Part shown: piece by piece, positions 22,719-43,524 of the stretch
Position numbering within the stretch: the stretch's first letter is position 1
Layout of the letters: each line of letters begins with the position of its first letter
Assembly (NCBI GenBank): GCA_013203315.1
Contig: JABMQJ010000007.1
Span: 3,270-67,269 of the forward strand
Direction: 5' to 3'
Length of the DNA stretch: 64,000 bases
Source of the DNA: Candidatus Omnitrophota bacterium
GTDB taxonomy: Bacteria > Omnitrophota > Gorgyraeia > JABMRN01 > RBG-13-46-9
Program-made: the position numbers and the translations under genes
Notes under the pieces: generated by a model
Database searches by the model: none
Seen by the model: the letters and a program-made list of their open reading frames with translations, nothing else
Told to the model about the DNA's origin: nothing

Positions 22719-23705
22719 TCAACCTACCTTTATCCATTTATTCATTCTGCCAGATTCATAGGCCTTTTCAATAACCTTTACGGATTCAAACCCGTCCACA
22801 TCTGTTATTATGGGTTTTATACCCGTTGTTATGCATTCTATGAAGTGCTTACCCTGGTTAGAGAAAGCCCTTTGTTTATCATAACCGCTTCCAAAAACCT
22901 GCCAGTTATCTTTTCCGTGCAGTTTATACTGTGACGACTTCCACCCTATGAGAAGCGTTCCTTCGGTCCCATAAATGCTTATGTAGCTGGGCATGTCTTT
23001 ATTTAAACTCCAGCTTAAGTCAATGGTTCCCATCACTTTGGATTTACTCTGGAAATATATACGCGCGGTATCTTCTACCGGTACCCTCTGTATCTGGCAA
23101 CCGAATTGCGCCTGCGTAAGGGCTATGGGGCCCAAGAGGAATCTTGCGATATCAACCGAATGCGCGCCGTTATCGATCAATACGCCGCCACCTGAGATTT
23201 TTTTATTCGAGTTCCATCTTTTTGTCATATCAACCCTGCTGCAAAAAACATTTTCAAAAAGCACAAGCTTACCGAGAGTCCCTGATTCTATTATGGCTTT
23301 CGCCTTAACTACGTCGTCGGTAAACCTGAACTTTGATGCCATCATGAGCACTACACGATTTTTCTTAGCTGACTCACGCATCTTTTGCGCCGCGGATCTA
23401 TTTAAGGCAAACGGTTTTTCACAGAGTACGTGGATCCCGTTTGACATCGCAAAAATCGATATTTCCGCATGCACATTAGGCGGAGCGCAAATAACAATGG
23501 CGTCGAGCTCTTCTTTTTTTATCATTGTCTTGTAATTTGTGTAGGCGCTACATTTGTATTGCTCGGCAAAGCTTTTTGCTTTCGTCTCTTCCTTGTCGGC
23601 AACGGCTTTTATGTTTACGTTCTTTATTTTAGCAAAAGCCCTTAAATGGTCCTGGGCTATTCTGCCGCAGCCTACAATAGCTAAATTTATTGTCTTTTTC
23701 TTCAT
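22719..23705 (-). CDS. Gfo/Idh/MocA-family sugar oxidoreductase (second WbpB-like copy)
   Basis: LAIVGCGRIAQDHL Rossmann motif and EKP motif (LCEKPFA). Confidence 0.75.
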   Translation of the reverse strand: MKKKTINLAIVGCGRIAQDHLRAFAKIKNVNIKAVADKEETKAKSFAEQYKCSAYTNYKTMIKKEELDAIVICAPPNVHAEISIFAMSNGIHVLCEKPFALNRSAAQKMRESAKKNRVVLMMASKFRFTDDVVKAKAIIESGTLGKLVLFENVFCSRVDMTKRWNSNKKISGGGVLIDNGAHSVDIARFLLGPIALTQAQFGCQIQRVPVEDTARIYFQSKSKVMGTIDLSWSLNKDMPSYISIYGTEGTLLIGWKSSQYKLHGKDNWQVFGSGYDKQRAFSNQGKHFIECITTGIKPIITDVDGFESVKVIEKAYESGRMNKWIKVG

Positions 23706-24931
23706 CGCACCCCCTGTTTTTTCTTATTCAGAAAAGATTCGGTGACTTCTTTTATGTTTTTCGCTATGTAATCTACGTGCTCTGTGGTATAGAACTCATT
23801 CCACGGTAAAACCAGGACCTGCTCAAGAGCCTTCATCGTGCCGGGATATTCGGCAGTATCGTAAACAACTTCTTTTTCACCTTTCCTGCTTGAGCAATCG
23901 TATGGACAATGGCTCTTGCCGTAGGTTACCTTGTCTTTTAAAACTTTGCACATAAAGGCCGGTTTCTGTATATATCGCGGTACCGAAAAAATGTCTTTTT
24001 CCTTAAGTACCTTAGAGATTTCCGTTACACCTACGCCGAATAAATCGGTATCAACGATAAGGGCGTATTTCCAGAAAACATGCTCGCTATCTTTCGTAGA
24101 TTCCGGCAAGGTTATACCGGGCGTACCCCGAAGACGCTCTGTAAGCAATTTTGCTGTATCCTGTCGTCTTTTCACAACGCCTCTTACTTTCCTAAGCTGC
24201 GCCAAGGCTACTGCGCCCTGAAGATCGGTCATTCTATAGTTTAAAGCGAGGAAATAGTGATCCGGATTCGGGTCTCCGTATCCCCAGGCTTTATCGATGA
24301 ATAGCCTTATCCTTCGCTCGAGTGCGGCGTCTTTTGTAATGATTATACCGCCCTCGCCTGTTGTCATGTGCTTACCCTGTTGCAGGCTAAAACAGCCTAT
24401 GTCGCCTATAGTTCCAACGTTTTTGCCCTTGTAAGTGGCAAAATAGGCCTGACAGCAATCCTCTATTACAGGAATTTTATGTTCTCGCGCAAGATCCATT
24501 ATAGGATCCATTTCAGCGGGTTTTCCGAACAAATGCACAACTATTATGGCTTTGGTGCGTTTTGTAATCTTCGGTCTTATGGTATCAGCCGTAATGTTGA
24601 GTGTTACAGGATCCGTATCCGCAAAAATAGGTATCGCATTTTGATAAAGTATGGGTGTTATGCCTCCCATGTCCGTTATAGGGGTTGAGATGATTTCATC
24701 CCCCGGATCAGGGTTTACAGCAGCAATCGCTGTGTGGAGCGAAGATGTTCCGGAGGTCGTAGCATGAGCAAACCTTACACCGCATTCTTCGGCAAACTCC
24801 TTTACGAGTTTCTTAACCATAGTCCCCTTTGTCGCGTTTAGCGTACCGGATTCGATCACCTCTTTTAAAAGAGCTATTTCTTCTTTTCCTAAATCCCTTC
24901 CGGTTGAATTAGAATCGTTTGGCAGTTTCAT
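23702..24931 (-). CDS. DegT-family PLP sugar aminotransferase (WbpE-like)
   Basis: Fold-type I aminotransferase. The likely start is MKLPNDS at 24931 (ATGA overlap with the upstream gene) rather than the track start at 24970. Confidence 0.75.
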   Translation of the reverse strand: MKLPNDSNSTGRDLGKEEIALLKEVIESGTLNATKGTMVKKLVKEFAEECGVRFAHATTSGTSSLHTAIAAVNPDPGDEIISTPITDMGGITPILYQNAIPIFADTDPVTLNITADTIRPKITKRTKAIIVVHLFGKPAEMDPIMDLAREHKIPVIEDCCQAYFATYKGKNVGTIGDIGCFSLQQGKHMTTGEGGIIITKDAALERRIRLFIDKAWGYGDPNPDHYFLALNYRMTDLQGAVALAQLRKVRGVVKRRQDTAKLLTERLRGTPGITLPESTKDSEHVFWKYALIVDTDLFGVGVTEISKVLKEKDIFSVPRYIQKPAFMCKVLKDKVTYGKSHCPYDCSSRKGEKEVVYDTAEYPGTMKALEQVLVLPWNEFYTTEHVDYIAKNIKEVTESFLNKKKQGVR

Positions 24932-25641
24932 GCGTTCTCCTTTCTTAACAATGTTCTCATAATAAAACACAAATGTTCCCTTATTAACTTTAAGCTTTTT
25001 GCGTGAGAAGATCCGAATTGTCTCACCTTTAAGGTAGCCGGGTATTCCACTATCTTCAGACCTTTCTTTCGCGCTTTTATCAATATCTCCGCCATTGCGA
25101 GAAACCCGTCAGACCTAAAATATGAATTTTTCAGGGCTTCTCTTTTATATATCCTAAACATGCTAGTATAGGTATAAAACTTGGATTTTACCACAATATT
25201 GTATAAATTTGAAAGATTTCTGCTCAAAAACAGCCTATAAGCCGGCACGTTAAGCGTCGAGCCCTTTGGGTGATAAGGAGAAGCTGTGACAATATCAGCG
25301 TTTTCGTTTTTGATAATGTCTAGCATTTTAACTAAATAGCTTGGTTCGTAAGTACAATCTGAGTCTATTGTTGCTATATAATCCCCGCGCGAATTCGATG
25401 CGCCTGTCTTAATAGCAGCGCCTACGCCCGTATTTTTAGCGTGCTTTACGACCTTGACATCATTTCCGATTCGATCTCTATAGAGGCTGCGCAAGCGATC
25501 GTACGTAGAGTCTGAACTTCCGTCATCAACAAAAACAAACTCATGATCCTCGCGCAGATCCTGCTCCAGGTCTTTAAGCTTGGAGGCAAGATGTTCCAGG
25601 CCTTCTTCTTCATTAAAACATGGGATAACAATAGATATCAT
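24928..25641 (-). CDS. DPM1-like GT2 polyprenyl-phosphate monosaccharide synthase
   Basis: ISIVIPCFNEE..FVDDGSSDST..IDSDCTYEP motifs. 237 aa, no TM. Confidence 0.7.
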   Translation of the reverse strand: MISIVIPCFNEEEGLEHLASKLKDLEQDLREDHEFVFVDDGSSDSTYDRLRSLYRDRIGNDVKVVKHAKNTGVGAAIKTGASNSRGDYIATIDSDCTYEPSYLVKMLDIIKNENADIVTASPYHPKGSTLNVPAYRLFLSRNLSNLYNIVVKSKFYTYTSMFRIYKREALKNSYFRSDGFLAMAEILIKARKKGLKIVEYPATLKVRQFGSSHAKSLKLIREHLCFIMRTLLRKENA

Positions 25642-25650
25642 TTTGAATTC

Positions 25651-27045
25651 CTATTTTATCATTGCCTTTAAAAGATTTTTTCCGGCGTCAAAATTAAGTT
25701 TTAATCGATGAATGGATTTTAATCTGCGTGCCTGTTTCAGAAAAATGCCGGGCCTCAAATAAAATTCTCTGTAGGCACGTTTTTGCAAATCCCTGATCTC
25801 CTCTGCGGTTAGATCTTTTAATCTGTGCACCGGTGAAGTATGTATGCCGTAATTATCAAAATTATGTTCGAAAATGAGGTTGTTGCCAAGCAGTTCATCG
25901 TAAACCTCTGTACCGGGAAAAGGCTTCAATATATGAAATTTTGCGATATCAGGATTGATTTTCTTCGCAAATTCAATGGTTTTCCTTATATCATCGGCTG
26001 TTTCGCCGGGTAAACCCATTATAAAAAATGCCCATATTTCTATGCCATATTTGCGCGTTATCTTAAAAACCTCCTCAATCCGTTCAAGCTTAATGCCCTT
26101 TTTGATTCTGTCCAGTATTTTCTGGCTACCCGATTCAATCCCGAAAGCGATGCTATAGATACCCATCTCCTTTAGAGCGCTAAGAAGCTCCTCGTCGACA
26201 GAATCGATCCTCATGCCGTCCGGTACTGCAAAGTTCAGGCGTAAATTTCTCTTTTTTATTTCATCCTTGATCCGGATGACCCTCGATTTTATAAGCGCGA
26301 AATTATCGTCCCAGATATGTATTTCTTTAGCTCCGAATTCTCTGACCAGGTATTCTATTTCATCAACTATATTCTTAGGCGATCTTGTCCTGAATTTTCG
26401 TTTAAAAATACAGCTTCCCGCGCAATAGGTGCAACGGGCAGGACAGCCTCTGCTTGTAATAATCGGAAATACAGGGGTAGCCAATGTATCGGGATATGTA
26501 TAGTTGCGGTTGTTGCAAAGGTGCCTTGCCGGAAAGGGAACTTCGTCGAGATTGTCAATGAGTTCCCTATCTTTATTTTTATGTACCTTCCCGTTCTTTC
26601 TATAATAAATGCCGTCTATCGATTCCGGGCCACGACGGCCTTCCAGATAATCGGCGAGTTCAACTATTGTCCTTTCCCCTTCGCCCTTAACGATAAAGTC
26701 GACTGAATCAAACTTCATTGACTCTTCCGGTAGCGCCGTTACGTGAATGCCGCCTAGGACTGTAAGTGCTTTGGAATATTTTTTAACCAGCTTTGACAGG
26801 GAAATGGCTTCGTTAAAAGTAGGCGTAGTCGTGGTTATCCCTACCAGATCATAATTATGTTCTTCTAATTTTTTTATAAAATCCTTTTCAGAAATCTTAT
26901 CGGCATCCATATCGATAATGTTAACTGTACGGCCCGCCGCCTCCAGGACCGAGCCGATATATCCAAGCCCAAGGGGCGGAAAATCCGGAGCCGAAAGCTT
27001 TCCGTATATTTTTGACTGTGAGGGAGCGGCTAATAAAATTTTCAT
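25651..27045 (-). CDS. B12-binding domain radical SAM enzyme
   Basis: PLGLGYIGSVLEAAGRTVNIIDMD cobalamin-domain-like N-terminus, then TSRGCPARCTYC. Confidence 0.75.
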   Translation of the reverse strand: MKILLAAPSQSKIYGKLSAPDFPPLGLGYIGSVLEAAGRTVNIIDMDADKISEKDFIKKLEEHNYDLVGITTTTPTFNEAISLSKLVKKYSKALTVLGGIHVTALPEESMKFDSVDFIVKGEGERTIVELADYLEGRRGPESIDGIYYRKNGKVHKNKDRELIDNLDEVPFPARHLCNNRNYTYPDTLATPVFPIITSRGCPARCTYCAGSCIFKRKFRTRSPKNIVDEIEYLVREFGAKEIHIWDDNFALIKSRVIRIKDEIKKRNLRLNFAVPDGMRIDSVDEELLSALKEMGIYSIAFGIESGSQKILDRIKKGIKLERIEEVFKITRKYGIEIWAFFIMGLPGETADDIRKTIEFAKKINPDIAKFHILKPFPGTEVYDELLGNNLIFEHNFDNYGIHTSPVHRLKDLTAEEIRDLQKRAYREFYLRPGIFLKQARRLKSIHRLKLNFDAGKNLLKAMIK

Positions 27046-28076
27046 CGTAACAATGTCCTTGCCATTACGCCGGGGTTAAAAAGAGAATTTATCAGGTAAA
27101 CGCAGGAGTGGGTACAAAAGCAACTCTTGATCTTTTGCCTGATCTGGTCAGCTTTTTTTGATGTCCACAATTTATTAAAATCGTATCCAAAATCCCTGAG
27201 ATTGCCTATTTTTTCATTTATCAATTCACATGCATAGACATCGCCGTACGGGTTTATCACAGCACTTAAACGGCCTGCAAAACAATCTATCTTCTTTTTG
27301 TTTCTTTCCAAAGTTTCCAAAATCAAATCATGTTCATAAAGCTTGGTTTTTTGCAGTATTTTTCCTTTCCATCCGCCGCCATAGCCGTAGGAGCTTATGC
27401 ACCCCTTTATTACCGGAAACAGTTCCCTGCACCGGGCTATATCGGGTAAAGAAACAGATAGAGAGCGTGGCTGTCCCCTTAAAAACTCGAAGCTGTGCAT
27501 ATCCGCACGAAATGAACGCTTAACATAATCTATAATCTTTGTGATTTCGGATTCATTTTCTTTCATTATTACTGTATTAAAACTGATCTTAAAATTTGGG
27601 TGCTTCTCCCTTAGCCTGCTAACTCTTTGGTATGTTTCGGTTACTTTGTCAAAATTGCCGCCAACGCCCCGTATCGCATCATGCGTATCCCGGAGACCAT
27701 CCAGAGAGAGTGATAGTAATAGGCTTGACCTATTATTTTTCAATATTTCTTTAAGGGCCTTCTCAATCCCCTCGGGATCAAGGCAGTTAGTAGGAATTGC
27801 TGTGGTATTTACTTTTCCGAACGCATCACAGATCCCGGGTAAATCTTTCCTTAAAAAAGGTTCTCCCCCGCCGATTTGTAGCCAGATAATATCATCGAGG
27901 TGCTTTCGAATTTTCCTTATTTCATCGACTGTCAATTCATTTTCTACGGCGCTTTCGTCAATTTCCTTCCATAAAAAACAGCTCCTACATTTAGAATTAC
28001 ACCTATAAGTACAATGAAACATGATATGAATCGGAAGCCCATTTTTATTCCACATTTTCGCTAAATAATTTATCAT
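27042..28076 (-). CDS. Radical SAM enzyme with C-terminal Cys-rich SPASM/twitch-like auxiliary-cluster domain
   Basis: CNSKCRSC (Cx3Cx2C) near the N-terminus, GGGEP motif, and C-terminal cysteines (CFAGR..YACE..CFCTHSC). Confidence 0.65.
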   Translation of the reverse strand: MINYLAKMWNKNGLPIHIMFHCTYRCNSKCRSCFLWKEIDESAVENELTVDEIRKIRKHLDDIIWLQIGGGEPFLRKDLPGICDAFGKVNTTAIPTNCLDPEGIEKALKEILKNNRSSLLLSLSLDGLRDTHDAIRGVGGNFDKVTETYQRVSRLREKHPNFKISFNTVIMKENESEITKIIDYVKRSFRADMHSFEFLRGQPRSLSVSLPDIARCRELFPVIKGCISSYGYGGGWKGKILQKTKLYEHDLILETLERNKKKIDCFAGRLSAVINPYGDVYACELINEKIGNLRDFGYDFNKLWTSKKADQIRQKIKSCFCTHSCVYLINSLFNPGVMARTLLR

Positions 28077-28900
28077 CGCTTCCTCTTTATTAAAAAAGCT
28101 ACAAACCTCGATACTACCCCGAGTGAGTAACTTAAAAAATGTAGCGTGATAGGTAATAAGGCTAGACCTATTATTACGGCGAGCTTAAAGTGAAAAATAA
28201 GCATCGCGAAACTCACAGAAATCAGGATAAAAGATCCCCATATATCCGGTCTTTTAAAAACAAACGGGTAATCCAGAACCATCTGCATGTTTCCGTATCC
28301 CCACAAAAATACCTGCTTCATATGCGCGAAAGGAAAAGTGCGGCGCTTATGGTAAAGAAAGAAGTCCGGTGAATTGTAAAGGGAAAGCCCTTTAATCTTG
28401 CATTTCAAAAAGAATTCCATGTCCTCGGTGTATTTATAATCTTCATTAAAATATCCTACTTTTTCAAAAACACCTTTACGCATCATTATGTTGCATGTAG
28501 CAAAATGTTTATAATCGCAAAAAGCGGCGCGCTTGGCCTTTTTGAACTTTTTTCTGAAACCGCTGAATATGCTGGTCGAGATCAAAAAATCACTTATTCT
28601 TTCACTGATTGAGGCCTGTGGAAAAATAAGATTCGGCCCGCCCACAATATGCGCGCCGCTTCTCTCCAGGAGCTCTACGCCCATAGATACCCATTCTTTA
28701 GGCAGCACGACATCGTCATCGATGAAAGCAATTATGTTTCCCTTCGCCCTTCTGACTCCTATATTCCTCGCTTCGGCTGCCTTATAGCCCTTTACAAGGA
28801 TCACTTCATAATTGGGATACTCCTGTTTCTTTAATGACTCCTCGTAAAGAGGGTTATCCCTACCGACAGCTATTATTACGGAAACCTTCGGGTGATCCAT
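28073..28900 (-). CDS. GT2-family glycosyltransferase with C-terminal TM helices
   Basis: VSVIIAV..FIDDDV GT-A motifs. Last ~60 aa hydrophobic (SFILISVSFAMLIF..IIGLALLPITL). Confidence 0.65.
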   Translation of the reverse strand: MDHPKVSVIIAVGRDNPLYEESLKKQEYPNYEVILVKGYKAAEARNIGVRRAKGNIIAFIDDDVVLPKEWVSMGVELLERSGAHIVGGPNLIFPQASISERISDFLISTSIFSGFRKKFKKAKRAAFCDYKHFATCNIMMRKGVFEKVGYFNEDYKYTEDMEFFLKCKIKGLSLYNSPDFFLYHKRRTFPFAHMKQVFLWGYGNMQMVLDYPFVFKRPDIWGSFILISVSFAMLIFHFKLAVIIGLALLPITLHFLSYSLGVVSRFVAFLIKRKR

Positions 28901-29632
28901 TTATCTATCCCTTATTTCATCCTTCAAAAGAAGCTTTTCCAGCCATGCGTATAAAACCGTAAAAAGATATTTTCTACCCATTTCCTTGACGCTTAGTTTT
29001 GAGACACCGCTTTTTCTGCCGTACCAGTTTATGGGTATTTGAACAAACTTAAATTTTCGCGCAATCGCCTTTAAAGGGAGCTCTACAGTAATATTGAAAT
29101 ATAGCGCCTGAATAGGCTGGATTTTTCTTATAACCTTTGTCCTGTAAAATTTAAAGGCATTTGTGATGTCGTTGGCTCTGGTAAGAAATAAAACCTGTAT
29201 AAAGGTATTGGCTAATCTATTTATGAACAATTTGAGCGGTGGGTAGTCTTTTACAACGCTGCCTTTCATGAATCTTGAACCAAATACACAGTCGTATCCT
29301 TCTTCTATTTTTCGGAAACACTTCACAATGTCCCTGGGGTCATCGGAGAGGTCACCCATAACAATTCCCACAACATCACCTGTTACCTGGTTTAAACCGT
29401 CTTTTATTGCCCGTCCGAATCCGGAAGGTTTCTGACGATTAATCAGTTTAATTACCGAGTGCGTTTTCATGAGATCCGCGACGATCCCAATAGTATTGTC
29501 AGTGCTATTATCATTTACAACGATAATCTCGTATTCAATACCTTCTTTATTAAGGACAGTTATAATATCACAAATTGTCTGACCTATACAGTCTTCTTCG
29601 TTGTGTGCCGGGGTAACTATCGATAACTTCAT
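28901..29632 (-). CDS. DPM1-like GT2 polyprenyl-phosphate monosaccharide synthase
   Basis: LSIVTPAHNEE..VVNDNSTDNT..MGDLSDDP motifs. 243 aa. Confidence 0.7.
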   Translation of the reverse strand: MKLSIVTPAHNEEDCIGQTICDIITVLNKEGIEYEIIVVNDNSTDNTIGIVADLMKTHSVIKLINRQKPSGFGRAIKDGLNQVTGDVVGIVMGDLSDDPRDIVKCFRKIEEGYDCVFGSRFMKGSVVKDYPPLKLFINRLANTFIQVLFLTRANDITNAFKFYRTKVIRKIQPIQALYFNITVELPLKAIARKFKFVQIPINWYGRKSGVSKLSVKEMGRKYLFTVLYAWLEKLLLKDEIRDR

Positions 29633-29634
29633 AC

Positions 29635-30615
29635 TTACTCCTTTGCGGATGAAATAGCTTCTTCTTCACCAAACAAACTAAATAGCCCTAGCGGAATTAT
29701 AAACACATAAAAAGGTATGAGAATCCTTACCTCGCTTATGGCGCCTCCTCTTGAAAAACCGTAAAGCAAAAAAAGCGTCATGGGTATTAATGCCCTTTTC
29801 AGTATGCTGGGTTTCTTGCGAAAATTCATAAACGCCAAAAACCAATAAAAACCACATAAATATAATATAAAATAAAAATGATTATATGGGTTCGGCGATT
29901 CAAATATTTTTAATAACCCTGCCACATTAACCCGGAAATGGTGAAAATAGCCCGGTAAATCCCTGATACCGAAAATTGAAATGAGTATTGCCGAAGGAAT
30001 AAGCCATAGCAAAAAGTAAATTGCCGTCCTTCTTATTAGGACAAACCAATTTTCTTTTCCGATCTCGTTGAAGAAATAAATAAGAACAAGTGCTATCGAG
30101 GTTTCCCTGTTAAGTGAGGCCAACGGTATCAGAATAAACAAGTTCTTATGTTTCCCATCCCGAATCCACATTACTCCTAGGATAAACATTATGAGCTCCG
30201 GCATATCCGTAGGTACCGAATACCAGTTAGTAAGGGTTAAAGGCAAAGAGGCTATTAGTGACAGCGTCCCTATCATTGCCGTTTTCTGGCCAAACCATTT
30301 TCGTAGATACATATGAAAAAGCGCAAAAGCCAGAAAGTAAAAAAGGAATCTGAACAATGCATATGAGTATTCTAATGAGATATGCGAAACCTTATGAAAG
30401 AAATAGACCGTATAAGGAACTAATATGCGATGATTCATGGGAGGATTAAAGTCACCCTTCACAACACTCTCTAAGGCTTGGGTAGATCTCTCAAAAGTAA
30501 GCACCCTCCGATCAAAATCGATATATCCCATTACAAAGGTGAGAAAGAAATATATCAATAAAATCTTTACTAAATCCCTGTTATTTTCTAGGTATCTACG
30601 CATTTTGTTTAACAC
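29635..30615 (-). CDS. Polytopic membrane protein, unknown function (tandem paralog 1)
   Basis: About 9 TM helices. Shares YFFLTFV.GYIDFDRRV.TFE.ST..L......G......RILIPYTV and C-terminal NPYNH.YF.LYLCGFYW.LAFM motifs with the upstream neighbour. Confidence 0.45.
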   Translation of the reverse strand: MLNKMRRYLENNRDLVKILLIYFFLTFVMGYIDFDRRVLTFERSTQALESVVKGDFNPPMNHRILVPYTVYFFHKVSHISLEYSYALFRFLFYFLAFALFHMYLRKWFGQKTAMIGTLSLIASLPLTLTNWYSVPTDMPELIMFILGVMWIRDGKHKNLFILIPLASLNRETSIALVLIYFFNEIGKENWFVLIRRTAIYFLLWLIPSAILISIFGIRDLPGYFHHFRVNVAGLLKIFESPNPYNHFYFILYLCGFYWFLAFMNFRKKPSILKRALIPMTLFLLYGFSRGGAISEVRILIPFYVFIIPLGLFSLFGEEEAISSAKE

Positions 30616-31573
30616 GCTTTTTTCCTTCAGTGAAGAGACTCGATAATCCCAATGGTATCACAAAAACATAAAACGGCATAAATATTCTCGTCTCATTTAT
30701 AGCGCTGACTCTTATAAAAACATAAAGGAAGTAAAGTATCATAACAATAACGGACCTCTTTAGTAGCGGGTCTTTCTTATGAAAATCCATGAACGCCAGT
30801 ATCCAGTAGAAACCACATAAATAAAGCAGAAAATAATAGTGGTTGTACGGATTGGGATTCTTAAATACGTGCAGAAGCCCTGCTACGTTATGTTCCAAGG
30901 TGACAAAATTCGAAAACTTCTCAAAACCAACCATGGCAATCATGATGCCAAATGGTATTGCCCACAAAAGACCATATATAATAGTCCTCCTGATTAAAAT
31001 AAGTGGTTTTTCCCTGCCTATACCGTATAGAAAATAAAGCAGAACAAGCGCAAGCGTTGCTTCCTTGTTAAATGTCGCAATCGGTATTAATATATAAAGA
31101 AGTTTATATTGATTTTTTTTGATCCACATCATCCCAAGGATGAAGGCTATAAAGTTTGGCATATCGCTCGAGATACAATACCAGTTAGTGAGAAATAACG
31201 GCAAAGAGGCAATCACCGATAACGTACCGATCATGGCACGCTTATCGTCAAACCACATTTTGAGATATATGTGAAAAAGGATAAAGGCCAGCAAAAAGAA
31301 AATGAACCTAAAAAACGCATAACTGTATGTGAGCGGTATGTGCGTTACCTTGTGAAAAAGATCTACCGTATAGGGAATCAAAATACGCCGCCCAAGAGGA
31401 GCACCAACTTCTCCGGTAATTATGTTCTTTAACTTCTCGGTAGATTGTTCAAACGTAAACACCCGCCGGTCAAAATCTATGTACCCTATTACAAAAGTAA
31501 GGAAAAAATATACCATGAAAATCTTGAGCGTGGTTTTATTATTGTGGGAATATTCGCGTATACGGTTTAACAT
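30596..31573 (-). CDS. Polytopic membrane protein, unknown function (tandem paralog 2)
   Basis: Collinear with 29635..30615 along its whole length, overlapping it by 20 nt. Confidence 0.45.
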   Translation of the reverse strand: MLNRIREYSHNNKTTLKIFMVYFFLTFVIGYIDFDRRVFTFEQSTEKLKNIITGEVGAPLGRRILIPYTVDLFHKVTHIPLTYSYAFFRFIFFLLAFILFHIYLKMWFDDKRAMIGTLSVIASLPLFLTNWYCISSDMPNFIAFILGMMWIKKNQYKLLYILIPIATFNKEATLALVLLYFLYGIGREKPLILIRRTIIYGLLWAIPFGIMIAMVGFEKFSNFVTLEHNVAGLLHVFKNPNPYNHYYFLLYLCGFYWILAFMDFHKKDPLLKRSVIVMILYFLYVFIRVSAINETRIFMPFYVFVIPLGLSSLFTEGKKRVKQNA

Positions 31574-32856
31574 GACATCACTTCTTTTGCTTCGTTACCA
31601 AGCTTAATACGCCAAACCCATGCCGCTGCGGCCAAAAATGATAAGAATAGCGCCCGCGCCAGAACTTTATACACTATCTCGATATTTACGAAACGGCCCA
31701 CGATCTCCTGGATAGTGGGTAAGCTTGAAAAATATACCGGATTAAGCGGGGCGAACAAGCCCAATTGCAGGTCTCTCTGATACAACCACTGGAATCCTAG
31801 CATTGCTATTATCGCAAACACCAATATACCAAACTTCTTATAGTACGGGATGATCAAGGCTAAAAGTGGTGTTATAAAAATGAAATATCTGAATCGTATC
31901 GGTAATGCCGCATAACTTATAAACATCACGGTTATGAAATAGTATAAAAGTTTTCCGGCCGGGTTTGTTTGGCGGGAGTCTTTTACGGCGTTTATGCAAA
32001 GCAAAGAAAACAAAACCATAAATATACCTCTTAGTACCCATTTTGTGATGCCGGAGTATTGTACGTGTGACAACATAAAAATACCAAAAACCGCATCTCC
32101 GGAAGATAGATAAAACGGCACATATGGTAAGATTGCAGCTACAGTCGCTACCAACAGAAGTAAAAATCTTTTTCGCCAATTATCGCCTAAAAGTAGACAC
32201 GCGGGCAATATCAAAATATACGGGAATAATACCGTACCCCCGCCCAAGCCTAAAAGAATAACGCAAAAAAACGGCTTTTTCTTCCAGGCCGCATATAAGG
32301 CAGCTGCTATAAAAAACGTAGGGATTAAATACGCGCCGCCTACCATATATACGCTATGTAAAACTACGATGTTAAGCATCCAGAGTTTATAGGTATCTAT
32401 TGCAAATTTTTGTGACGTTGCTAATTTGAGCAAAATTCCGCCTATCAAAAAATCGAAAATAAGATATGGGATCTTCATTATAAATAAATTCTTAACTAGT
32501 CCGAGATTTGCAAAGGCGTGTACATAATCAACTGTAGTAAAATGCTTCCCCATCATTGTACCCGAAAGCTCTAACATCGCGATAAGCGAAGCGGGATTAG
32601 ACAATTTTATAATTATAAAGTCTGTGATAGACATGATGAAAAATAAAACGGGACCGTAGTATGTAAAATTAAAATGTGAAAAATTGGTAGCGATCAAAGC
32701 ATATGGATCCCAAATACCCTCTGTTATGAACTTCATCGGGAAATAATTTAAAAAGAGTAGATCCTGGCCATGCATGGTAAACGGTACTAAGGTTAGCCTG
32801 AGCGACAAACCGATGCATGTCCATAAAGCGATCTGTATGTAGTATTTTTTTACCAT
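31567..32856 (-). CDS. Polytopic membrane protein, unknown function (candidate GT-C / Wzy-like)
   Basis: 429 aa, at least 10 hydrophobic helices, no soluble domain. Confidence 0.35.
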   Translation of the reverse strand: MVKKYYIQIALWTCIGLSLRLTLVPFTMHGQDLLFLNYFPMKFITEGIWDPYALIATNFSHFNFTYYGPVLFFIMSITDFIIIKLSNPASLIAMLELSGTMMGKHFTTVDYVHAFANLGLVKNLFIMKIPYLIFDFLIGGILLKLATSQKFAIDTYKLWMLNIVVLHSVYMVGGAYLIPTFFIAAALYAAWKKKPFFCVILLGLGGGTVLFPYILILPACLLLGDNWRKRFLLLLVATVAAILPYVPFYLSSGDAVFGIFMLSHVQYSGITKWVLRGIFMVLFSLLCINAVKDSRQTNPAGKLLYYFITVMFISYAALPIRFRYFIFITPLLALIIPYYKKFGILVFAIIAMLGFQWLYQRDLQLGLFAPLNPVYFSSLPTIQEIVGRFVNIEIVYKVLARALFLSFLAAAAWVWRIKLGNEAKEVMSC

Positions 32857-34711: not shown

Positions 34712-36185
34712 TTTTTACCCGATTGTATAAATCCATTTTTTTATTTACATGCATCAAAAGCGGAAATGTCAGCGCTAAAAAAATGAGCATTTGCCATATC
34801 GCCCTTCCGATATCCGACGGCAAATCTTTGAAGCCACCGTAAAACATGCGGCCTACGACATAGAAAGCAAAAATGCTCCATATGATCGGCGCATTGAGGT
34901 TTATGAAAAAAGTTATTCTCTTATAGAGATTAGGTATGTGATATTTTACGGCGTATCCTATTGTAAAACTGCTGTATAAGAAATAGGTGACTGCTGTGCC
35001 AAGGGCTATTCCCCTGATCCCTAGATTAAATACCTTCACAAACAAGAGATTTAGCCCTGCGCTGATAGCAATACATAATACGCCAATTATCAGGATCAGG
35101 TGTTGTTTCTTCAGGGCAATTAAGAGATACCTTGACATGTACCCTATCGATATAAAAAAGGTGCCAAAGAGCAGTATCGACGCAGCCGTGATCCCATTTG
35201 TATATTTCGGCAGCACATAATTTACGAAAACAGGCATTGTTATTGCCGCTAATCCTATTATAACGGGGAATAAATACGCGAACGCGAGCGTTGGTTTTTC
35301 GACATAGTTCTTTATTTTGCTGACATCGTCTTTTGAGTCGCCAAAGGCTTCGTAAAAACGCGGAAACAAAACAACGTAAATCAAATTAGGTAGCTGAAAA
35401 AGGAAAGAGTGCACCATAATGGCAATGCTGTAATACCCCAGGTCGTTCTTCGTGAGAAGAGATAATATCATGATCCGATCTATGTTCCTTAGGGCCATAA
35501 AAGTAAAGCCTCCCAAGAATATAGGAAAGCCTATGGCTAAAAGCATTTTAAGGGTCTTGGCGGATATTTTAAACGTTATCCTGAACCGCACCTTAGTCTT
35601 TTTGAATAGATACAGAAGCCCCACCGTAAGGCTTAAGATCGTCGCCCAGAGGACTCCTATTACTCCGAATTTTATACCCAATAAGGCCTTAAAAAGAACA
35701 TCACATAGGGCCAGGATAATAATGTATTTGCTCAGAACCCCGAACAAGTGGTGGGTCCGAGCCAGGGTAACGTAAAAAGTATTCATGGACTGTATAACCA
35801 CCAGTGCGGCAATTACCTTTATCCCGATAGACATCACCGGCGTTAGCGTGTTCCTGAAAACGTAGGATATAACCAGTATAATTAAAGCTGAAGCGAGCGC
35901 GGTAAAAAGACCAAAGCTTATGCCCACATTTTTTGCTTCTTCCACCTTTTTGGTTTCTTTTTTTCCGTTATAATACGGTATTTGCCTATCCAGGGAATCG
36001 TATATACCCACGTGGCTATATTTGGCGTACTCAAAGATCAGCAATAATTCCAGATACACGCCCATAAAAAAAGAATCCAGCACCTTGCGGACAATGGTTG
36101 CGCTTATAAATGAGCAAAAACTCGATATATAACCGCTTATGCTAAATCTGGTTGCGTCTTTTAATATCTCTTTGGATTTACTCAA
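34683..36185 (-). CDS. MOP-superfamily polysaccharide flippase (Wzx-like)
   Basis: 500 aa, about 12-14 TM helices, Polysacc_synt-like arrangement. Confidence 0.6.
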   Translation of the reverse strand: MSKSKEILKDATRFSISGYISSFCSFISATIVRKVLDSFFMGVYLELLLIFEYAKYSHVGIYDSLDRQIPYYNGKKETKKVEEAKNVGISFGLFTALASALIILVISYVFRNTLTPVMSIGIKVIAALVVIQSMNTFYVTLARTHHLFGVLSKYIIILALCDVLFKALLGIKFGVIGVLWATILSLTVGLLYLFKKTKVRFRITFKISAKTLKMLLAIGFPIFLGGFTFMALRNIDRIMILSLLTKNDLGYYSIAIMVHSFLFQLPNLIYVVLFPRFYEAFGDSKDDVSKIKNYVEKPTLAFAYLFPVIIGLAAITMPVFVNYVLPKYTNGITAASILLFGTFFISIGYMSRYLLIALKKQHLILIIGVLCIAISAGLNLLFVKVFNLGIRGIALGTAVTYFLYSSFTIGYAVKYHIPNLYKRITFFINLNAPIIWSIFAFYVVGRMFYGGFKDLPSDIGRAIWQMLIFLALTFPLLMHVNKKMDLYNRVKNAGFNIFKK

Positions 36186-37608
36186 CGCCTATTTTCTCCT
36201 TCACCTTGCCTAATGACCAGCCAAAGGTCTTCATTGCGCCCTCGGCTTTTATTCGTTTTTTAAGGTCTTCGAATATCCTTTTTGATTCTTCGGTCGCAAT
36301 TTCAATCCTGGAACGCAGGCTAAAGTTTTCTCTTATTTTCGCTTCCGCTCTTTCTTTCAAACTCTTAAGCTCCTTATCGGACATCGTGGTTAAATTCACC
36401 AGAAGCGTGTTATACATCTCGCCTAGCGAGCTTACATATTTATTTTCGTCATCCGGTATTTTCCGCATTTCTTTCGCCATCTCATAAAGCGGGGTATTGG
36501 GATAAGGCGTTGTGTAGAAAAACCGGTGAAGCGTTAGGCCCGTTCTTTTTATAAACTCTACGGTTTCATTAACACTTTCCTCGGTTTCGCCGATCATTCC
36601 TATCATGAAAGAGCCCTCTATGCCGATACCCGCTTTTCTTGTAAATTCCACCGCTTTTTCCGCCTGTTCTACTCTTACCCCTTTCTTTATGCTATCCAGC
36701 ATTCTTTGGCTCCCCGACTCAAATCCATAGCTTAAAGCCTCGCAGCCCGCTTTTTTCATCTTTTTAAGTAAGTTCAGATCCACCAGATTTACTCTTGCTG
36801 AAGCGCCCCAGCCGATTTTAAGTTTTTCTTTTATCAGGGCATCGCAAAACTCCTCTACCCAGGACCTGTCGATCGTAAAGAGGTCGTCGGTAAAGCCTAT
36901 GAACTCTATATTATAACACCGTTTAAGCTCTTTTATTTCGGCGACAATGCTTGCCGGTGAGCGTTTATATACACGGGGACCAAAGGGCCTGGAGCAATAG
37001 ATGCATTGAAACGGGCACCCCCGCACCGTGGAGATATTCATGCTTCTTCTACCGTATTCAGTGTGGATCGGATTATTAATATAAGTTTCCATTTGAAAAA
37101 GATCCCAAGCCGGAAAGGGAATTCTGTCCAGGTCTTTTATTCTCTCTCTGGGAGCCGTAGAGACAATCCGATTTCCTTTCTTAAAAACTATTCCTTTGAC
37201 GCTATCTATTTCAGGAAAATCTTTTATTCTTTGCATTAGCTCTCTTATTGTTTCTTCGCCCTCGTCAATCACGCATATATCAATCTGTGAATGACGCAGC
37301 AATAACTCCGGAGATGAGGTTGAAACCATGTTGCCCGCGATCATCATGACATTCGGTTTTACTTTTTTTGCAATGTTGGAAAACTTTTTTACAAAGTCAT
37401 AAGTTGTAGTTAACCCACCGATACCTATGGCATCACAATCTACTGTTTCAAGCTCCCTCTCAATGGCTTCGTATGGCTTCTTGCTCACGTTGAAATCCAT
37501 TAAAGACACGTTGTGACCTTCCTGCCTCAGCACGCTTGCGACATATCCCAGTCCCAGAGGAATAAGGGAAGGCGTTCTGCACGGCGGATTAACCAAGAGA
37601 ATATGCAC
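36178..37608 (-). CDS. B12-binding domain radical SAM enzyme
   Basis: LIPLGLGYVASVLRQEGHNVSLMD N-terminus and TVRGCPFQCIYC motif. Confidence 0.75.
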   Translation of the reverse strand: MHILLVNPPCRTPSLIPLGLGYVASVLRQEGHNVSLMDFNVSKKPYEAIERELETVDCDAIGIGGLTTTYDFVKKFSNIAKKVKPNVMMIAGNMVSTSSPELLLRHSQIDICVIDEGEETIRELMQRIKDFPEIDSVKGIVFKKGNRIVSTAPRERIKDLDRIPFPAWDLFQMETYINNPIHTEYGRRSMNISTVRGCPFQCIYCSRPFGPRVYKRSPASIVAEIKELKRCYNIEFIGFTDDLFTIDRSWVEEFCDALIKEKLKIGWGASARVNLVDLNLLKKMKKAGCEALSYGFESGSQRMLDSIKKGVRVEQAEKAVEFTRKAGIGIEGSFMIGMIGETEESVNETVEFIKRTGLTLHRFFYTTPYPNTPLYEMAKEMRKIPDDENKYVSSLGEMYNTLLVNLTTMSDKELKSLKERAEAKIRENFSLRSRIEIATEESKRIFEDLKKRIKAEGAMKTFGWSLGKVKEKIGVE

Positions 37609-38638: not shown

Positions 38639-38639
38639 T

Positions 38640-40843: not shown

Positions 40844-40902
40844 CTTGGCGTTCTCCTTTAAAGCCTAACGTTTATAAGGCATTTCTTTGTCAATTACATG
40901 AA

Positions 40903-43118: not shown

Positions 43119-43127
43119 TGTATCCTC

Positions 43128-43487
43128 CTAGACTATGTTCTCTGTCTTTTTGTTTTCTTGTGTTTTCGCCGTGTACTTCTCATACTCTTCTTTTAATCTT
43201 CTATACTCTTTTTCCTTTGCTTTCAAAAAATAGAATGTGAGCGTCATCTTCTCCTCAATACCTTTTTGAGTAAGAATATACTTTAGTTTTTTGCTTTTTT
43301 CGGGATTCTTGGAAAACGCACCCATCATGATCATGCCCTTTTTGACAAGCTCTTTTAAAAGATAATTGGTTTTTCCCAGGGAAATGTTGAGCTTCTGGGA
43401 AAGGAGGCGCTGGTTTAAGGATGGATCATCCTCCAGTTCCCTTATAAGGCGGAGTGTCTCTTCTTTAGAAAAGCTATGTTCATTCAT
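43128..43487 (-). CDS. Small winged-helix regulator (MarR-like, EPS-locus-associated type)
   Basis: 119 aa. LNQRLLSQKLNISLGKTNYLLKELVKKGMI helix-turn-helix-like segment. Lysine/glutamate-rich C-terminal tail. Confidence 0.45.
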   Translation of the reverse strand: MNEHSFSKEETLRLIRELEDDPSLNQRLLSQKLNISLGKTNYLLKELVKKGMIMMGAFSKNPEKSKKLKYILTQKGIEEKMTLTFYFLKAKEKEYRRLKEEYEKYTAKTQENKKTENIV

Positions 43488-43495
43488 TGAACATC

Positions 43496-43524
43496 ATTGT
43501 ATACTCTGACGTGTTCTAAGTCAA
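43496..43524 (-). promoter_or_regulatory. Sigma70-like promoter (TTGACT-17 nt-TACAAT) placing the predicted transcription start 1-2 nt upstream of the regulator ATG (leaderless mRNA)
   Basis: Minus-strand reading: TTGACT (43524..43519), 17-nt spacer, TACAAT (43501..43496). ATG at 43487. No Shine-Dalgarno. Located in the only sizeable (132 bp) gap of the long array. Confidence 0.35.

What the first reader, a model, noticed from the sequence alone, without database searches (positions are those of the whole stretch)
27042..28076. SPASM/twitch-type radical SAM enzyme inside the glycan operon, with no RiPP precursor nearby
The N-terminal Cx3Cx2C plus a C-terminal Cys-rich auxiliary-cluster domain resemble the AtsB/BtrN/PqqE-type class. 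BtrN is a precedent for a twitch-domain radical SAM acting as a sugar (aminocyclitol) dehydrogenase. Here the gene is translationally coupled (ATGA overlaps) between a B12-rSAM and a GT2, with no small peptide ORF around. A carbohydrate-directed radical oxidation or epimerisation is therefore more plausible than peptide maturation.
Basis: partly seen in the sequence, partly recalled or inferred. Interest (0 to 1): 0.6.

Follow-up and report, generated by a model that had tools for sequence, protein, structure and literature searches.

The report
Radical SAM partner of a glycosyltransferase
This gene encodes an uncharacterised iron-sulfur radical enzyme that, across hundreds of bacteria and archaea, sits next to or is fused to a membrane glycosyltransferase, so it almost certainly alters a cell-surface sugar rather than a peptide.

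Summary
A 344-aa ORF lies on the minus strand at 27042-28076. It has a CX3CX2C radical SAM core and a Cys-rich C-terminal domain, and ATGA overlaps join it to a GT2 upstream and a B12-radical SAM downstream. The C-terminal domain is a twitch, not a full SPASM. Only four C-terminal Cys are invariant in 150 diverse relatives (C265, C283, C319, C321), enough for one auxiliary cluster. Its only significant solved-structure match is the BtrN twitch.

The carbohydrate reading is strongly supported by comparative evidence:
- A GT2 gene lies within 150 bp in 44 of 84 loci from many phyla, on the same strand in 42 of those 44.
- Nine of the 150 best representatives are GT2-transmembrane-radical SAM fusions, and these arose several times independently.
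- No conserved small ORF, RRE domain or peptide-maturase orthology was found.

The family is large, with about 3,440 clusters at 50% identity. No NCBIfam model reaches its cutoff, and I found no open-access paper on it.

The chemistry is inferred, not shown. I think H-atom abstraction from a sugar on the GT2's membrane-bound substrate or product is most likely, leading to a two-electron oxidation or an epimerisation. I class it as a new variant of the sugar-modifying twitch radical SAM enzymes.

The parts
27042..28076 (-). Radical SAM/twitch enzyme, 344 aa (the finding)
   Evidence: ORF call and translation. Pfam PF04055 and PF13186 both above gathering cutoff. An identical protein exists in a Candidatus Omnitrophica MAG, and there are 1214 homologues at E<=1e-3. 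AF2 mean pLDDT 94.3.
27978..28001 (-). CX3CX2C motif (C26, C30, C33), ligands of the SAM-binding [4Fe-4S] cluster
   Evidence: Read directly from the sequence. Invariant in 52 of 52 and in 150 of 150 relatives.
27525..28010 (-). Radical SAM core (residues 23-184), including the GGGEPFLR SAM-binding motif (residues 69-76)
   Evidence: Pfam PF04055, E 7.8e-13. G70, G71 and E72 are invariant.
27102..27284 (-). Twitch-type auxiliary-cluster domain: C265 - hairpin - (GDVYA)C283 ... C319-x-C321-x3-C325
   Evidence: PF13186 at 30 bits. C265, C283, C319 and C321 are present in 150/150 relatives and C325 in 135/150; no other conserved Cys. A C-terminal profile hits only the BtrN twitch in the PDB, with C265 and C283 aligned on the two BtrN hairpin cysteines.
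28073..28900 (-). Partner GT2 glycosyltransferase, 275 aa: GT-A domain plus a C-terminal two-helix membrane hairpin (about residues 218-264). Its stop codon overlaps the radical SAM start codon.
   Evidence: Pfam PF13632, PF00535, PF13641. Hydropathy. AF2 pLDDT 92.6 with long C-terminal helices. Foldseek best matches are TarP, TarS, WrtF, BcsA and K4CP. Close orthologues have the same longest-contig length as close radical SAM orthologues, which suggests shared contigs. Family-wide adjacency and fusions.
25651..27045 (-). B12-binding radical SAM, 464 aa, translationally coupled downstream. An accessory neighbour, not a constant partner.
   Evidence: Pfam PF02310 and PF04055. Best NCBIfam hits are HpnJ at 251 bits (cutoff 577.6) and BchE at 220 bits (cutoff 481). 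A B12-radical SAM gene lies within 10 kb of a family member in only 19 of 84 loci.
24928..25641 (-). Short soluble GT2, 237 aa, resembling polyprenyl-phosphate sugar synthases. It lies 9 nt downstream of the B12-radical SAM gene.
   Evidence: Pfam PF00535 at 112 bits. NCBIfam similarity to ArnC, PpgS and PgfS, all below cutoff. The same pair occurs as a single fused protein in L044.
28901..29632 (-). Short GT2, 243 aa, resembling polyprenyl-phosphate hexose synthases. It abuts the partner GT2 upstream.
   Evidence: Pfam PF00535 at 99.5 bits. NCBIfam similarity to PgfS, AglJ, dolichyl-phosphate hexose transferase and ArnC, all below cutoff.

Best explanation
The gene encodes a twitch-type radical SAM enzyme. 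It has one SAM-binding [4Fe-4S] cluster (C26, C30, C33) and one fully Cys-ligated auxiliary cluster (C265, C283, C319, C321).

I propose that it works as the dedicated partner of the membrane-anchored GT2 glycosyltransferase encoded immediately upstream. Both catalytic domains would lie on the cytoplasmic face of the membrane, held together by the GT2's transmembrane hairpin. In some organisms the two are a single polypeptide.

The likely sequence of events is as follows. The GT2 transfers a sugar from a nucleotide sugar onto a membrane-bound acceptor, such as a lipid-linked glycan or a glycolipid. The radical SAM enzyme then reductively cleaves SAM, and the 5'-deoxyadenosyl radical abstracts a hydrogen from an unactivated carbon of that sugar. 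The substrate radical is then resolved in one of two ways. Either an electron passes to the auxiliary cluster, giving a net two-electron oxidation such as a keto sugar, as in BtrN. Or a hydrogen atom returns to the opposite face, giving epimerisation as in NeoN; the 90%-conserved C325 is a candidate donor.

Shown: the domain content, the conserved ligands, the operon coupling, the GT2 adjacency and fusions, and the absence of a peptide substrate.

Inferred: the order of the two enzymes, the identity of the substrate, and the type of chemistry. My rough split is 40% oxidation, 25% epimerisation and 35% other chemistry.
For: - Domains and motifs.
- Cysteine conservation: exactly four C-terminal Cys are invariant in 150 representatives that are at most 50% identical to one another, and no further conserved Cys exists that could bind a second cluster.
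- Fold: the AF2 model has pLDDT 94.3. Its nearest solved folds include the sugar-acting BlsE (TM 0.61/0.63) and DesII, besides SkfB, CteB, anSME and SuiB.
- BtrN link: the C-terminal profile matches only the BtrN twitch (whole-family profile).
- Coupling in the window: ATGA overlaps.
- GT2 partnership:
  - A GT2 lies within 150 bp in 44 of 84 loci, on the same strand in 42 of those 44.
  - GT2 density is 4.39 per 10 kb in the first kb, against about 0.0-0.8 per 10 kb at 4-10 kb from the gene.
  - Precomputed Pfam annotation shows a GT2 directly beside the radical SAM gene in 7 of the 8 annotated loci; in the eighth (L005) a short GT2 lies one gene away.
  - Adjacent GT2s usually share the partner's architecture, 300-360 aa with C-terminal hydrophobic helices.
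- Fusions:
  - Nine of the 150 top representatives are GT2-TM-radical SAM fusions carrying the same GT2 Pfam signature.
  - Each fused radical SAM domain is closest to unfused members, which implies repeated independent fusion.
  - The fusions recur full-length in independent assemblies.
- Precedents for a glycosyltransferase followed by a radical SAM enzyme acting on the glycosylated product: HpnI/HpnJ and Cds (PMC13459092) and PtmC (PMC9092360). BlsD/BlsE and NeoN are from my own knowledge.
Against: - No biochemical datum exists for any member.
- No characterised orthologue exists. All NCBIfam hits are far below cutoff, and TM-scores to solved structures are at most 0.63.
- At sequence level the closest solved relative of the catalytic core is a peptide maturase, SkfB (E 5e-20).
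- Adjacency cannot say whether the enzyme acts after the GT2, before it (on the nucleotide-sugar donor), or on the lipid part of the acceptor.
- About a quarter of the loci show no GT2 within 3 kb. Short contigs and my crude ORF calling account for part of this.
- An auxiliary cluster does not distinguish oxidation from epimerisation or C-C bond formation.
- I could not read coordinates from the AF2 model, so the Cys geometry is unchecked.
Confidence: 0.6

Rival explanations
1. It tailors the nucleotide-sugar donor before glycosyl transfer. It would act on a soluble NDP-sugar, as DesII does on TDP-4-amino-4,6-dideoxyglucose, and the adjacent GT2 would then use the unusual product.
For: DesII and BlsE are among the best structural matches. 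The window is rich in nucleotide-sugar tailoring genes: GFO/DegT/hexapeptide transferase, a 2-epimerase and the NeuB pathway. Adjacency and fusion are equally compatible with a 'make the donor, then transfer it' order.
Against: Fusion of a soluble donor-tailoring enzyme through a transmembrane hairpin to a GT2 is harder to explain than modification in situ at the membrane. No particular nucleotide-sugar pathway gene co-occurs consistently with the family; DegT, GFO and Epimerase_2 each appear in at most 7 of 85 loci.
Confidence: 0.2
2. It modifies the lipid part of a glycolipid or of the carrier rather than the sugar. Examples would be C-C bond formation or adenosylation on an isoprenoid or acyl chain, as done by Tes, GDGT-MAS and HpnH.
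For: Tes/GDGT-MAS is the fourth-best PDB sequence hit for the family profile (2.9e-13). HpnH and Tes profiles give weak hits. The partner GT2 is membrane-embedded, and Pfam families PF13632 and PF13506 are common among lipid glycosyltransferases. The Thermoanaerobaculia locus L004 lies next to LpxB and MsbA-like genes.
Against: All these hits cover mainly the generic radical SAM core and are far below family cutoffs. The surrounding genes are overwhelmingly glycan-assembly genes (GT1/GT2, Wzx, GT-C, sugar epimerases) rather than lipid synthesis genes.
Confidence: 0.1
3. It is a RiPP or protein maturase (sactionine or other cross-link, or peptide epimerase) whose precursor is encoded elsewhere.
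For: The closest solved relatives by sequence and by fold are peptide-modifying enzymes: SkfB, CteB, SuiB and anSME. Most characterised SPASM/twitch enzymes act on peptides.
Against: There is no intergenic room or free small ORF in the window. No small ORF is conserved within 2 kb in 84 loci. The two 42-43 aa gene calls after homologues in L001 and L088 show no evident similarity to each other on inspection. There is no PqqD/RRE domain and no N-terminal extension, since the CX3CX2C starts at residue 26. No maturase NCBIfam reaches its cutoff. The conserved partner is a GT2, which is even fused to it.
Confidence: 0.03
4. It acts on the GT2 protein itself, as an activase or by post-translational modification of its partner.
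For: Tight pairing and fusion with a single protein partner.
Against: From my own knowledge, known radical SAM activases are small, lack twitch domains and act on glycyl-radical enzymes. The GT2 is an ordinary GT-A fold with no sign of a radical domain. An intramolecular single-turnover modification would not explain a family of this size with such diverse GT2 partners.
Confidence: 0.03

Closest known systems
BtrN (2-deoxy-scyllo-inosamine dehydrogenase, butirosin pathway; PDB 4M7S/4M7T)
   Same: Both are radical SAM enzymes with a single, fully Cys-ligated auxiliary cluster in a twitch domain, and BtrN acts on a carbohydrate-like substrate. BtrN is the only significant PDB match to this family's C-terminal domain. 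C265 and C283 align with the two BtrN hairpin cysteines, and C325 aligns with the first Cys of the BtrN CxxC.
   Different: The similarity is confined to the twitch domain (22-25 bits), and the catalytic cores are not detectably orthologous. BtrN is about 270 aa, soluble, and sits in an aminoglycoside cluster without a GT2 partner. Its distal Cys motif is CxxC, whereas here it is CxCx3C.
SkfB (sporulation killing factor maturase; PDB 6EFN)
   Same: SkfB is the best solved match by sequence (profile E 5.4e-20) and by Foldseek (1.6e-11). It is also a twitch enzyme with a CxC pair in the distal part of the domain (alignment).
   Different: SkfB has a roughly 100-aa N-terminal peptide-recognition region and a precursor gene alongside it. 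This protein has neither. TM-score is only 0.55/0.49. TIGR04403 (SkfB family) scores 45-49 bits in two relatives against a cutoff of 300.
BlsE and DesII (radical SAM enzymes acting on cytosylglucuronate and on a TDP-aminosugar; PDB 7VOB, 8HZV)
   Same: Both act on sugars and are among the top structural neighbours (BlsE TM 0.61/0.63; DesII TM 0.60/0.45). BlsE acts on the product of a glycosyl-transfer step (my own knowledge).
   Different: Sequence similarity is limited to the radical SAM core (BlsE 28.8 bits). From my own knowledge, neither uses an auxiliary cluster. Both belong to antibiotic pathways, not to surface-glycan assembly.
HpnI/HpnJ and calditol synthase Cds (a glycosyltransferase followed by a radical SAM ring contraction on a glycolipid)
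   Same: The logic is the same: a glycosyltransferase installs a hexose on a membrane lipid and a radical SAM enzyme then rebuilds that sugar in place (PMC13459092, PMC9092360). The B12-type radical SAM next door scores best against the HpnJ model.
   Different: HpnJ is a B12-domain radical SAM enzyme, not a twitch enzyme. I could not obtain the Cds sequence, so its relationship is untested. The loci show no genes for hopanoid or tetraether lipid synthesis.
MftC/MftF (mycofactocin radical SAM/SPASM maturase and its GT2)
   Same: A SPASM-class radical SAM enzyme and a GT2 occur together. The GT2 halves of the fusions score best against the MftF model (168 bits in P0121), as does the window's GT2 (59 bits).
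   Different: All scores are below cutoff (MftF 280, MftC 265). MftC acts on the MftA peptide with the MftB chaperone, and neither is present here. MftC has two auxiliary clusters.
NeoN (neomycin C-5''' radical SAM epimerase; from my own knowledge, not tested here)
   Same: NeoN is a radical SAM enzyme with an auxiliary cluster that epimerises an unactivated sugar carbon after glycosylation, using a Cys thiol as hydrogen donor. The 90%-conserved fifth Cys (C325) could play that role here.
   Different: No sequence or structure comparison was possible with the tools available. NeoN is a soluble antibiotic-pathway enzyme.

Membership tests
Radical SAM superfamily | CX3CX2C motif providing three Cys to the SAM-binding [4Fe-4S] cluster | tested here: met
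   C26-NSK-C30-RS-C33. Present in 150 of 150 relatives.
Radical SAM superfamily | Profile match to PF04055 above the gathering score, and a GGE-type SAM-binding motif | tested here: met
   49.4 bits against a cutoff of 29.5. GGGEPFLR at residues 69-76, with G70, G71 and E72 invariant.
SPASM domain (two auxiliary clusters) | Seven-Cys signature CX9-15GX4C - gap - CX2CX5CX3C - gap - C | tested here: not met
   Only 5 C-terminal Cys. The distal motif is CxCx3C, and no further conserved Cys exists in 150 relatives.
SPASM domain (two auxiliary clusters) | Pfam PF13186 match above the gathering score | tested here: met
   30.0 bits against a cutoff of 21.5, residues 265-322. Many homologues fall below it.
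Twitch domain (one auxiliary cluster) | Truncated SPASM: a Cys before and a GX4C after a beta-hairpin, then a helix, then further Cys, giving four ligands in all | tested here: met
   C265, hairpin strands 271-274 and 279-281, G278-x4-C283, helices 293-316, then C319 and C321. The four Cys are invariant. The BtrN twitch is the only PDB hit of the domain profile.
Twitch domain (one auxiliary cluster) | Actual binding of an auxiliary Fe-S cluster | not testable with these tools
   Needs Fe/S analysis and EPR or Moessbauer spectroscopy of wild type and Cys-to-Ala variants. The model coordinates could not be read to measure Cys-Cys distances.
BtrN-type sugar dehydrogenase | Full-length orthology to BtrN | tested here: not met
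   Only the twitch region aligns (22-25 bits). BtrN is absent from the top 50 Foldseek matches.
Anaerobic sulfatase-maturing enzyme (AtsB/anSME) | Full-length orthology and two auxiliary clusters | tested here: not met
   Structural neighbour only (E about 2e-9, TM 0.56). No sequence-level PDB hit at E<=1. No anSME model appears among the listed NCBIfam hits. Only one cluster's worth of Cys.
RiPP radical SAM maturase | Precursor peptide gene in the neighbourhood | tested here: not met
   No free small ORF in the window. No conserved small ORF in 84 loci.
RiPP radical SAM maturase | N-terminal RRE/PqqD-like peptide-recognition domain | tested here: not met
   The radical SAM motif starts at residue 26, and Pfam finds no PqqD domain.
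Any curated NCBIfam radical SAM family (PTO1314, ACGX, MftC, NirJ, AhbD, HpnH, Tes, SkfB, PapB and others) | Score at or above the model's curated cutoff | tested here: not met
   Best hit for the window protein is TIGR03961 at 73.9 bits against a cutoff of 306. None of 7 family members reaches any cutoff.
Calditol synthase (Cds) | Sequence orthology to Saci_1489 | not tested
   The sequence was not obtainable with the tools, and the primary paper (PMC6305003) is not held.

The most novel reading that the evidence does not exclude
The GT2/twitch radical SAM pair, fused in some organisms, is a self-contained two-step machine. It would install a sugar on a membrane-bound glycan or lipid and immediately rebuild it by radical chemistry into something ordinary sugar enzymology cannot make. 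Examples are a carbocyclic (cyclitol-type) or C-C/ether-cross-linked residue, or a polymer-level epimer. On this reading it is a previously unrecognised, widespread class of surface-glycan modification, shared by ultra-small bacteria (Omnitrophota, Patescibacteria), DPANN archaea, Acidobacteriota and many anaerobes.
Probability: 0.12. Interest if true: 0.85.

Novelty: new variant of a known kind. Interest (0 to 1): 0.6.

Why it matters
From my own knowledge, radical SAM enzymes that act on sugars are known almost only from antibiotic pathways (BtrN, DesII, BlsE, NeoN, AprD4) and from two glycolipid head-group cases (HpnJ, Cds). Here there is a large family, about 3,440 clusters at 50% identity, spread across bacteria and archaea. 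No NCBIfam model reaches its cutoff for it, and I found no open-access paper on it. It is tied to a membrane GT2 by adjacency and by repeated gene fusion, inside cell-surface glycan loci.

That gives a concrete, testable entry point. The natural fusions supply both enzymes in one polypeptide, which should help in finding out which radical sugar modification decorates the envelopes of many uncultivated lineages.

It also matters for annotation. These genes should not be counted as RiPP maturases in genome-mining surveys that key on PF04055 plus PF13186.

Tried and rejected
- Plus-strand reading of the given coordinates: full of stop codons. The gene is on the minus strand.
- RiPP reading: rejected for the reasons given under the rival explanations.
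- Partner GT2 as a GtrB/ArnC/DPMS-type polyprenyl-phosphate sugar synthase. I considered this because of its C-terminal TM hairpin. It is not supported. The profile and fold searches rank K4CP, GalT1, PglI, TarP/TarS, WrtF and BcsA well above DPMS, GtrB and ArnC. The acceptor therefore stays undefined.
- B12-radical SAM as an obligate partner: rejected. It is present within 10 kb in only 19 of 84 loci.
- A consistent third partner such as an aminotransferase or a reductase, which would have hinted at a keto-sugar product: none found.
- Single-linkage clustering of neighbours merged the GT2 and B12-radical SAM families through a fusion protein. I replaced it with family HMMs.
- My ORF picking is crude in high-GC loci, so the Pfam counts for the -1 and +1 neighbours (GT2 in 24/78 and 12/81) are lower bounds.
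- Literature searches for a characterised member found nothing relevant. Only open-access text is covered.
- The Cds primary paper is not held.
- I could not read model coordinates, so the Cys-cluster geometry was not measured.
Full report
**1. The observation**

The coordinates 27042-28076 hold a 344-aa ORF with an ATG start, on the minus strand. The plus-strand reading is full of stops. A GAGGA Shine-Dalgarno-like sequence lies a few bases upstream of the ATG.

The protein carries C26-x3-C30-x2-C33. Pfam gives Radical_SAM PF04055 at 49.4 bits (cutoff 29.5, residues 23-184) and SPASM PF13186 at 30.0 bits (cutoff 21.5, residues 265-322).

The stop of the upstream GT2 (28073-28900) overlaps the start codon. 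The stop of this gene overlaps the start of a B12-binding radical SAM gene (25651-27045; PF02310 plus PF04055).

From 23702 to 29632 the genes abut or overlap, with a largest gap of 9 nt. Every shorter ORF between 25000 and 30100 lies inside one of them. There is no room for a precursor-peptide gene.

**2. What the protein is**

*Origin and relatives.* An identical protein exists in a Candidatus Omnitrophica MAG. The word-indexed search returned 1214 homologues at E<=1e-3. An exhaustive profile search of 1.84 billion cluster representatives found 3,440 at E<=1e-30.

*Cysteines.* In a 52-sequence alignment (33-69% identity to the query), C26, C30, C33, C265, C283 and C321 are invariant, and C319 and C325 are at least 90% conserved. 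I then aligned the 150 best representatives, which are at most 50% identical to one another. In these, C26/C30/C33 and C265/C283/C319/C321 are present in 150 of 150, C325 in 135 of 150, and no other column is Cys-rich enough to build a second cluster.

So the C-terminal domain has four invariant ligands in the pattern C - hairpin - GX4C - helices - CxC. That is one auxiliary cluster, a twitch domain, not the seven-Cys two-cluster SPASM.

*Structure.* The AF2 model is confident (mean pLDDT 94.3, pTM 0.92) and shows the expected hairpin and helices. Foldseek against the PDB gives SkfB, CteB, BlsE, DesII, anSME, SuiB, MoaA and PqqE, with TM-scores of at most 0.63. There is no close solved relative.

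*Sequence profiles against the PDB.* The whole-family profile ranks SkfB (5e-20), MoaA and the tetraether synthase first. BtrN is picked up only through its C-terminal region. A profile of the C-terminal domain alone has exactly one significant PDB hit, the BtrN twitch (E 8.7e-4). In that alignment C265 and C283 fall on the two BtrN hairpin cysteines, and C325 falls on the first Cys of the BtrN CxxC.

*Curated families.* No NCBIfam model comes near its cutoff for the window protein. The best is the PTO1314 family at 74 bits against a cutoff of 306. The same holds for six other members, including two fusions. The family is not covered by that library.

**3. What it works with**

*The window.* It is a very large surface-glycan island. 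It contains:
- several short GT2s resembling polyprenyl-phosphate sugar synthases;
- GT1-fold (GT4-type) transferases;
- PMT_2/GT-C membrane transferases;
- a Wzx-type flippase;
- a GFO/DegT/hexapeptide-transferase trio with a UDP-GlcNAc 2-epimerase;
- a NeuB/cytidylyltransferase nonulosonic-acid set;
- three B12-radical SAM genes.

It holds only one member of the twitch family.

*Annotated homologue loci.* Eight loci carrying homologues (34-67% identity to the query) have precomputed Pfam annotation. They include a Woesearchaeota archaeon and a Thermoanaerobaculia bacterium. All eight are glycan loci. Seven have a GT2 directly beside the radical SAM gene; in the eighth (L005) a short GT2 lies one gene away. 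Most also carry B12-radical SAM, GT-C or Wzx genes.

*Genome-wide sample.* I fetched 80 further loci from one-genome-per-species contigs. They span Omnitrophota, Patescibacteria, Acidobacteriota, Planctomycetota, Chloroflexota, Deltaproteobacteria, Elusimicrobia, Pelagibacteraceae, DPANN archaea and methanogen relatives. I classified their ORFs with iterated family HMMs. The results are:
- A GT2 gene lies within 150 bp of the radical SAM gene in 44 of 84 loci (52%). It is on the same strand in 42 of those 44.
- A GT2 lies within 3 kb in 73% of loci.
- GT2 density is 4.39 per 10 kb in the first kilobase, against about 0.0-0.8 per 10 kb at 4-10 kb from the gene. This is an internal control, and it shows that the association is with the radical SAM gene itself and not merely with glycan islands.
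- B12-radical SAM genes (23% within 10 kb) and GT-C genes (29%) are occasional neighbours, not constant partners.

The adjacent GT2s are mostly 300-360 aa with C-terminal hydrophobic helices, like the window's 275-aa GT2, which has two helices at about residues 218-264.

*Close orthologues.* Close orthologues of the window's GT2 have the same longest-contig lengths as close orthologues of the radical SAM protein, which suggests they share contigs.

*Fusions, the strongest evidence.* Nine of the 150 best family representatives are 618-719 aa proteins. Each has an N-terminal GT2 with the same Pfam signature as the window's partner (PF00535, PF10111 and PF13641, with PF13632 in all but two). A C-terminal radical SAM/twitch domain follows, and in eight of the nine a hydrophobic linker separates the two. 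For each fusion, the nearest relatives of its radical SAM half are unfused members (39-67% identity), never another fusion. So fusion or fission has happened repeatedly. One fusion cluster is seen full-length in 14 independent assemblies. Another comes from Candidatus Buchananbacteria, where it is annotated only as 'glycosyltransferase'.

*No peptide.* No small ORF within 2 kb is conserved across the 84 loci. Two 42-43 aa gene calls after homologues in L001 and L088 show no evident similarity to each other on inspection.

*Nature of the partner GT2.* Its AF2 model (pLDDT 92.6) and its profile are closest to ordinary inverting GT-A enzymes that extend glycans or polymers: K4CP, GalT1, PglI, TarP/TarS, WrtF and BcsA. 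The similarity to polyprenyl-phosphate sugar synthases (DPMS, GtrB, ArnC) is much weaker. I therefore describe it as a membrane-anchored GT2 with an undefined membrane-bound acceptor.

**4. How it most likely works**

*Shown:*
- a radical SAM core with an intact SAM cluster site;
- a twitch domain with four invariant Cys;
- translational coupling to a membrane GT2;
- family-wide adjacency to such GT2s and repeated fusion with them;
- absence of the hallmarks of a peptide substrate.

*Inferred:*
- The two enzymes act consecutively on one membrane-bound molecule on the cytoplasmic face. Both need cytoplasmic cosubstrates, and the hydrophobic linker of the fusions could return the chain to that face.
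- The GT2 most likely acts first. This follows the precedents HpnI then HpnJ and glycosyltransferase then Cds (PMC13459092), PtmC (PMC9092360), and BlsD then BlsE and NeoN (my own knowledge).
- The 5'-deoxyadenosyl radical then abstracts a hydrogen from the sugar.

A fully Cys-ligated auxiliary cluster, as in BtrN, is best known as an electron sink for a net two-electron oxidation. I therefore rank dehydrogenation or another oxidative outcome first (about 40%). Epimerisation comes second (about 25%), with the 90%-conserved C325 as a candidate hydrogen donor. Decarboxylation, dehydration, ring contraction and C-C coupling share the rest.

No aminotransferase or reductase travels consistently with the pair. 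The product therefore probably needs no obligatory follow-up enzyme.

**5. Rivals**

- Tailoring of the nucleotide-sugar donor before transfer. This is compatible with the adjacency. It fits less well with fusion through a membrane hairpin and with the lack of any consistently associated nucleotide-sugar pathway gene. Confidence about 0.2.
- Action on the lipid part of the substrate, as in Tes or HpnH. Only weak core-level similarity supports it. Confidence about 0.1.
- RiPP or protein maturase, or an activase of the GT2. Each about 0.03, for the reasons given above.

**6. Comparison with known families, and novelty**

The protein works like the sugar-acting twitch radical SAM enzymes but is not a member of any characterised family. 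It fails the strict SPASM signature. It fails full-length orthology to BtrN, anSME, SkfB and MftC. It fails every NCBIfam cutoff tested. I could not test its relationship to Cds or to NeoN.

Seven searches of the open-access library found no paper describing this family or GT2-radical SAM fusions.

I class it as a new variant of a known kind. The chemistry class has precedent. The family itself, its obligate pairing or fusion with a membrane GT2, and its role in surface-glycan loci across both prokaryotic domains are undescribed as far as I could determine.

**7. Verdict**

- Confidence that this is a GT2-partnered enzyme directed at a glycan or glycolipid, not a RiPP enzyme: about 0.85.
- Confidence in the full mechanistic statement: 0.6.
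- Confidence in any one chemistry: at most 0.4.
- Interest: 0.6. It is not a shock to a specialist, but it is a large, unexplored family with a ready-made experimental handle in the natural fusions.

Noticed in passing
window 25651-27045(-)/24928-25641(-) and 14112-15665(+)/15693-16421(+); L044:11107-13287: Two of the window's three B12-binding radical SAM genes are each followed directly by a short (about 240 aa) GT2 resembling polyprenyl-phosphate sugar synthases. In an Elusimicrobiales MAG the same two domains form one 727-aa protein: B12-binding, Radical_SAM, then Glycos_transf_2. This suggests a second radical SAM-GT2 partnership, independent of the twitch one. The same B12-then-GT2 order recurs in L001, L008, L018 and L074.
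   Followed up: partly
window 25651-27045, 36178-37608 (both -), 14112-15665 (+): One glycan island holds three B12-binding radical SAM genes. The first scores best against HpnJ (251 bits, cutoff 577.6) and BchE (220 bits), so it belongs to no named family. Some related loci carry up to six such genes (L070, L074).
   Followed up: partly
window 29635-30615, 30596-31573, 31567-32856 (all -): Three consecutive ORFs of 325-429 aa just upstream of the GT2s have no significant Pfam or NCBIfam match. The first is visibly a hydrophobic multi-pass membrane protein. L001 has counterparts of the first and the third, and the counterpart of the third carries a weak GT87 hit. They may be GT-C-type or polymerase-like proteins.
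   Followed up: no
window 37622-45643 (-): A nonulosonic-acid (pseudaminic/legionaminic-type) gene set: NeuB, a GNAT/Glyco_tran_28_C protein, a CMP-sugar cytidylyltransferase, a PseB-like Polysacc_synt_2 dehydratase, a DegT aminotransferase and an SDR epimerase. It includes one 401-aa ORF with no Pfam hit (40903-42108).
   Followed up: no
L004:10276-11190, L005:9091-10188, L089:4689-5684: A second, different radical SAM/SPASM family (305-366 aa) occurs in the same glycan loci as the twitch family. L004 and L005 give stronger PF13186 hits of 45-53 bits, and L089 is annotated with PF13186. More than one radical SAM lineage therefore seems to be recruited to glycan assembly.
   Followed up: partly
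L090:3138-3716: In one locus a ferredoxin-like gene (Fer4_15 plus PterinBD-DUF4346) lies immediately upstream of the twitch radical SAM homologue. It could be a dedicated electron donor. There is no counterpart in the window.
   Followed up: no
L004 (Thermoanaerobaculia), also L009-L011, L015, L016, L022: In Thermoanaerobaculia and Acidobacteriota the module is a conserved GT2(-)/GT2(+)/radical SAM arrangement. In L004 it lies beside LpxB, an MsbA-like ABC transporter and FtsX-family (LolCE-like) genes, which hints at modification of LPS core or lipid A.
   Followed up: no
window 28073-28900 (-): The partner GT2 is short at its N-terminus. Where GT2s usually have the first nucleotide-binding Asp pair ('VVDDGS'), it reads EVILVKGYK, although the DDD (DxD) motif at residues 61-63 is intact. 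Its closest orthologues have the same length.
   Followed up: no
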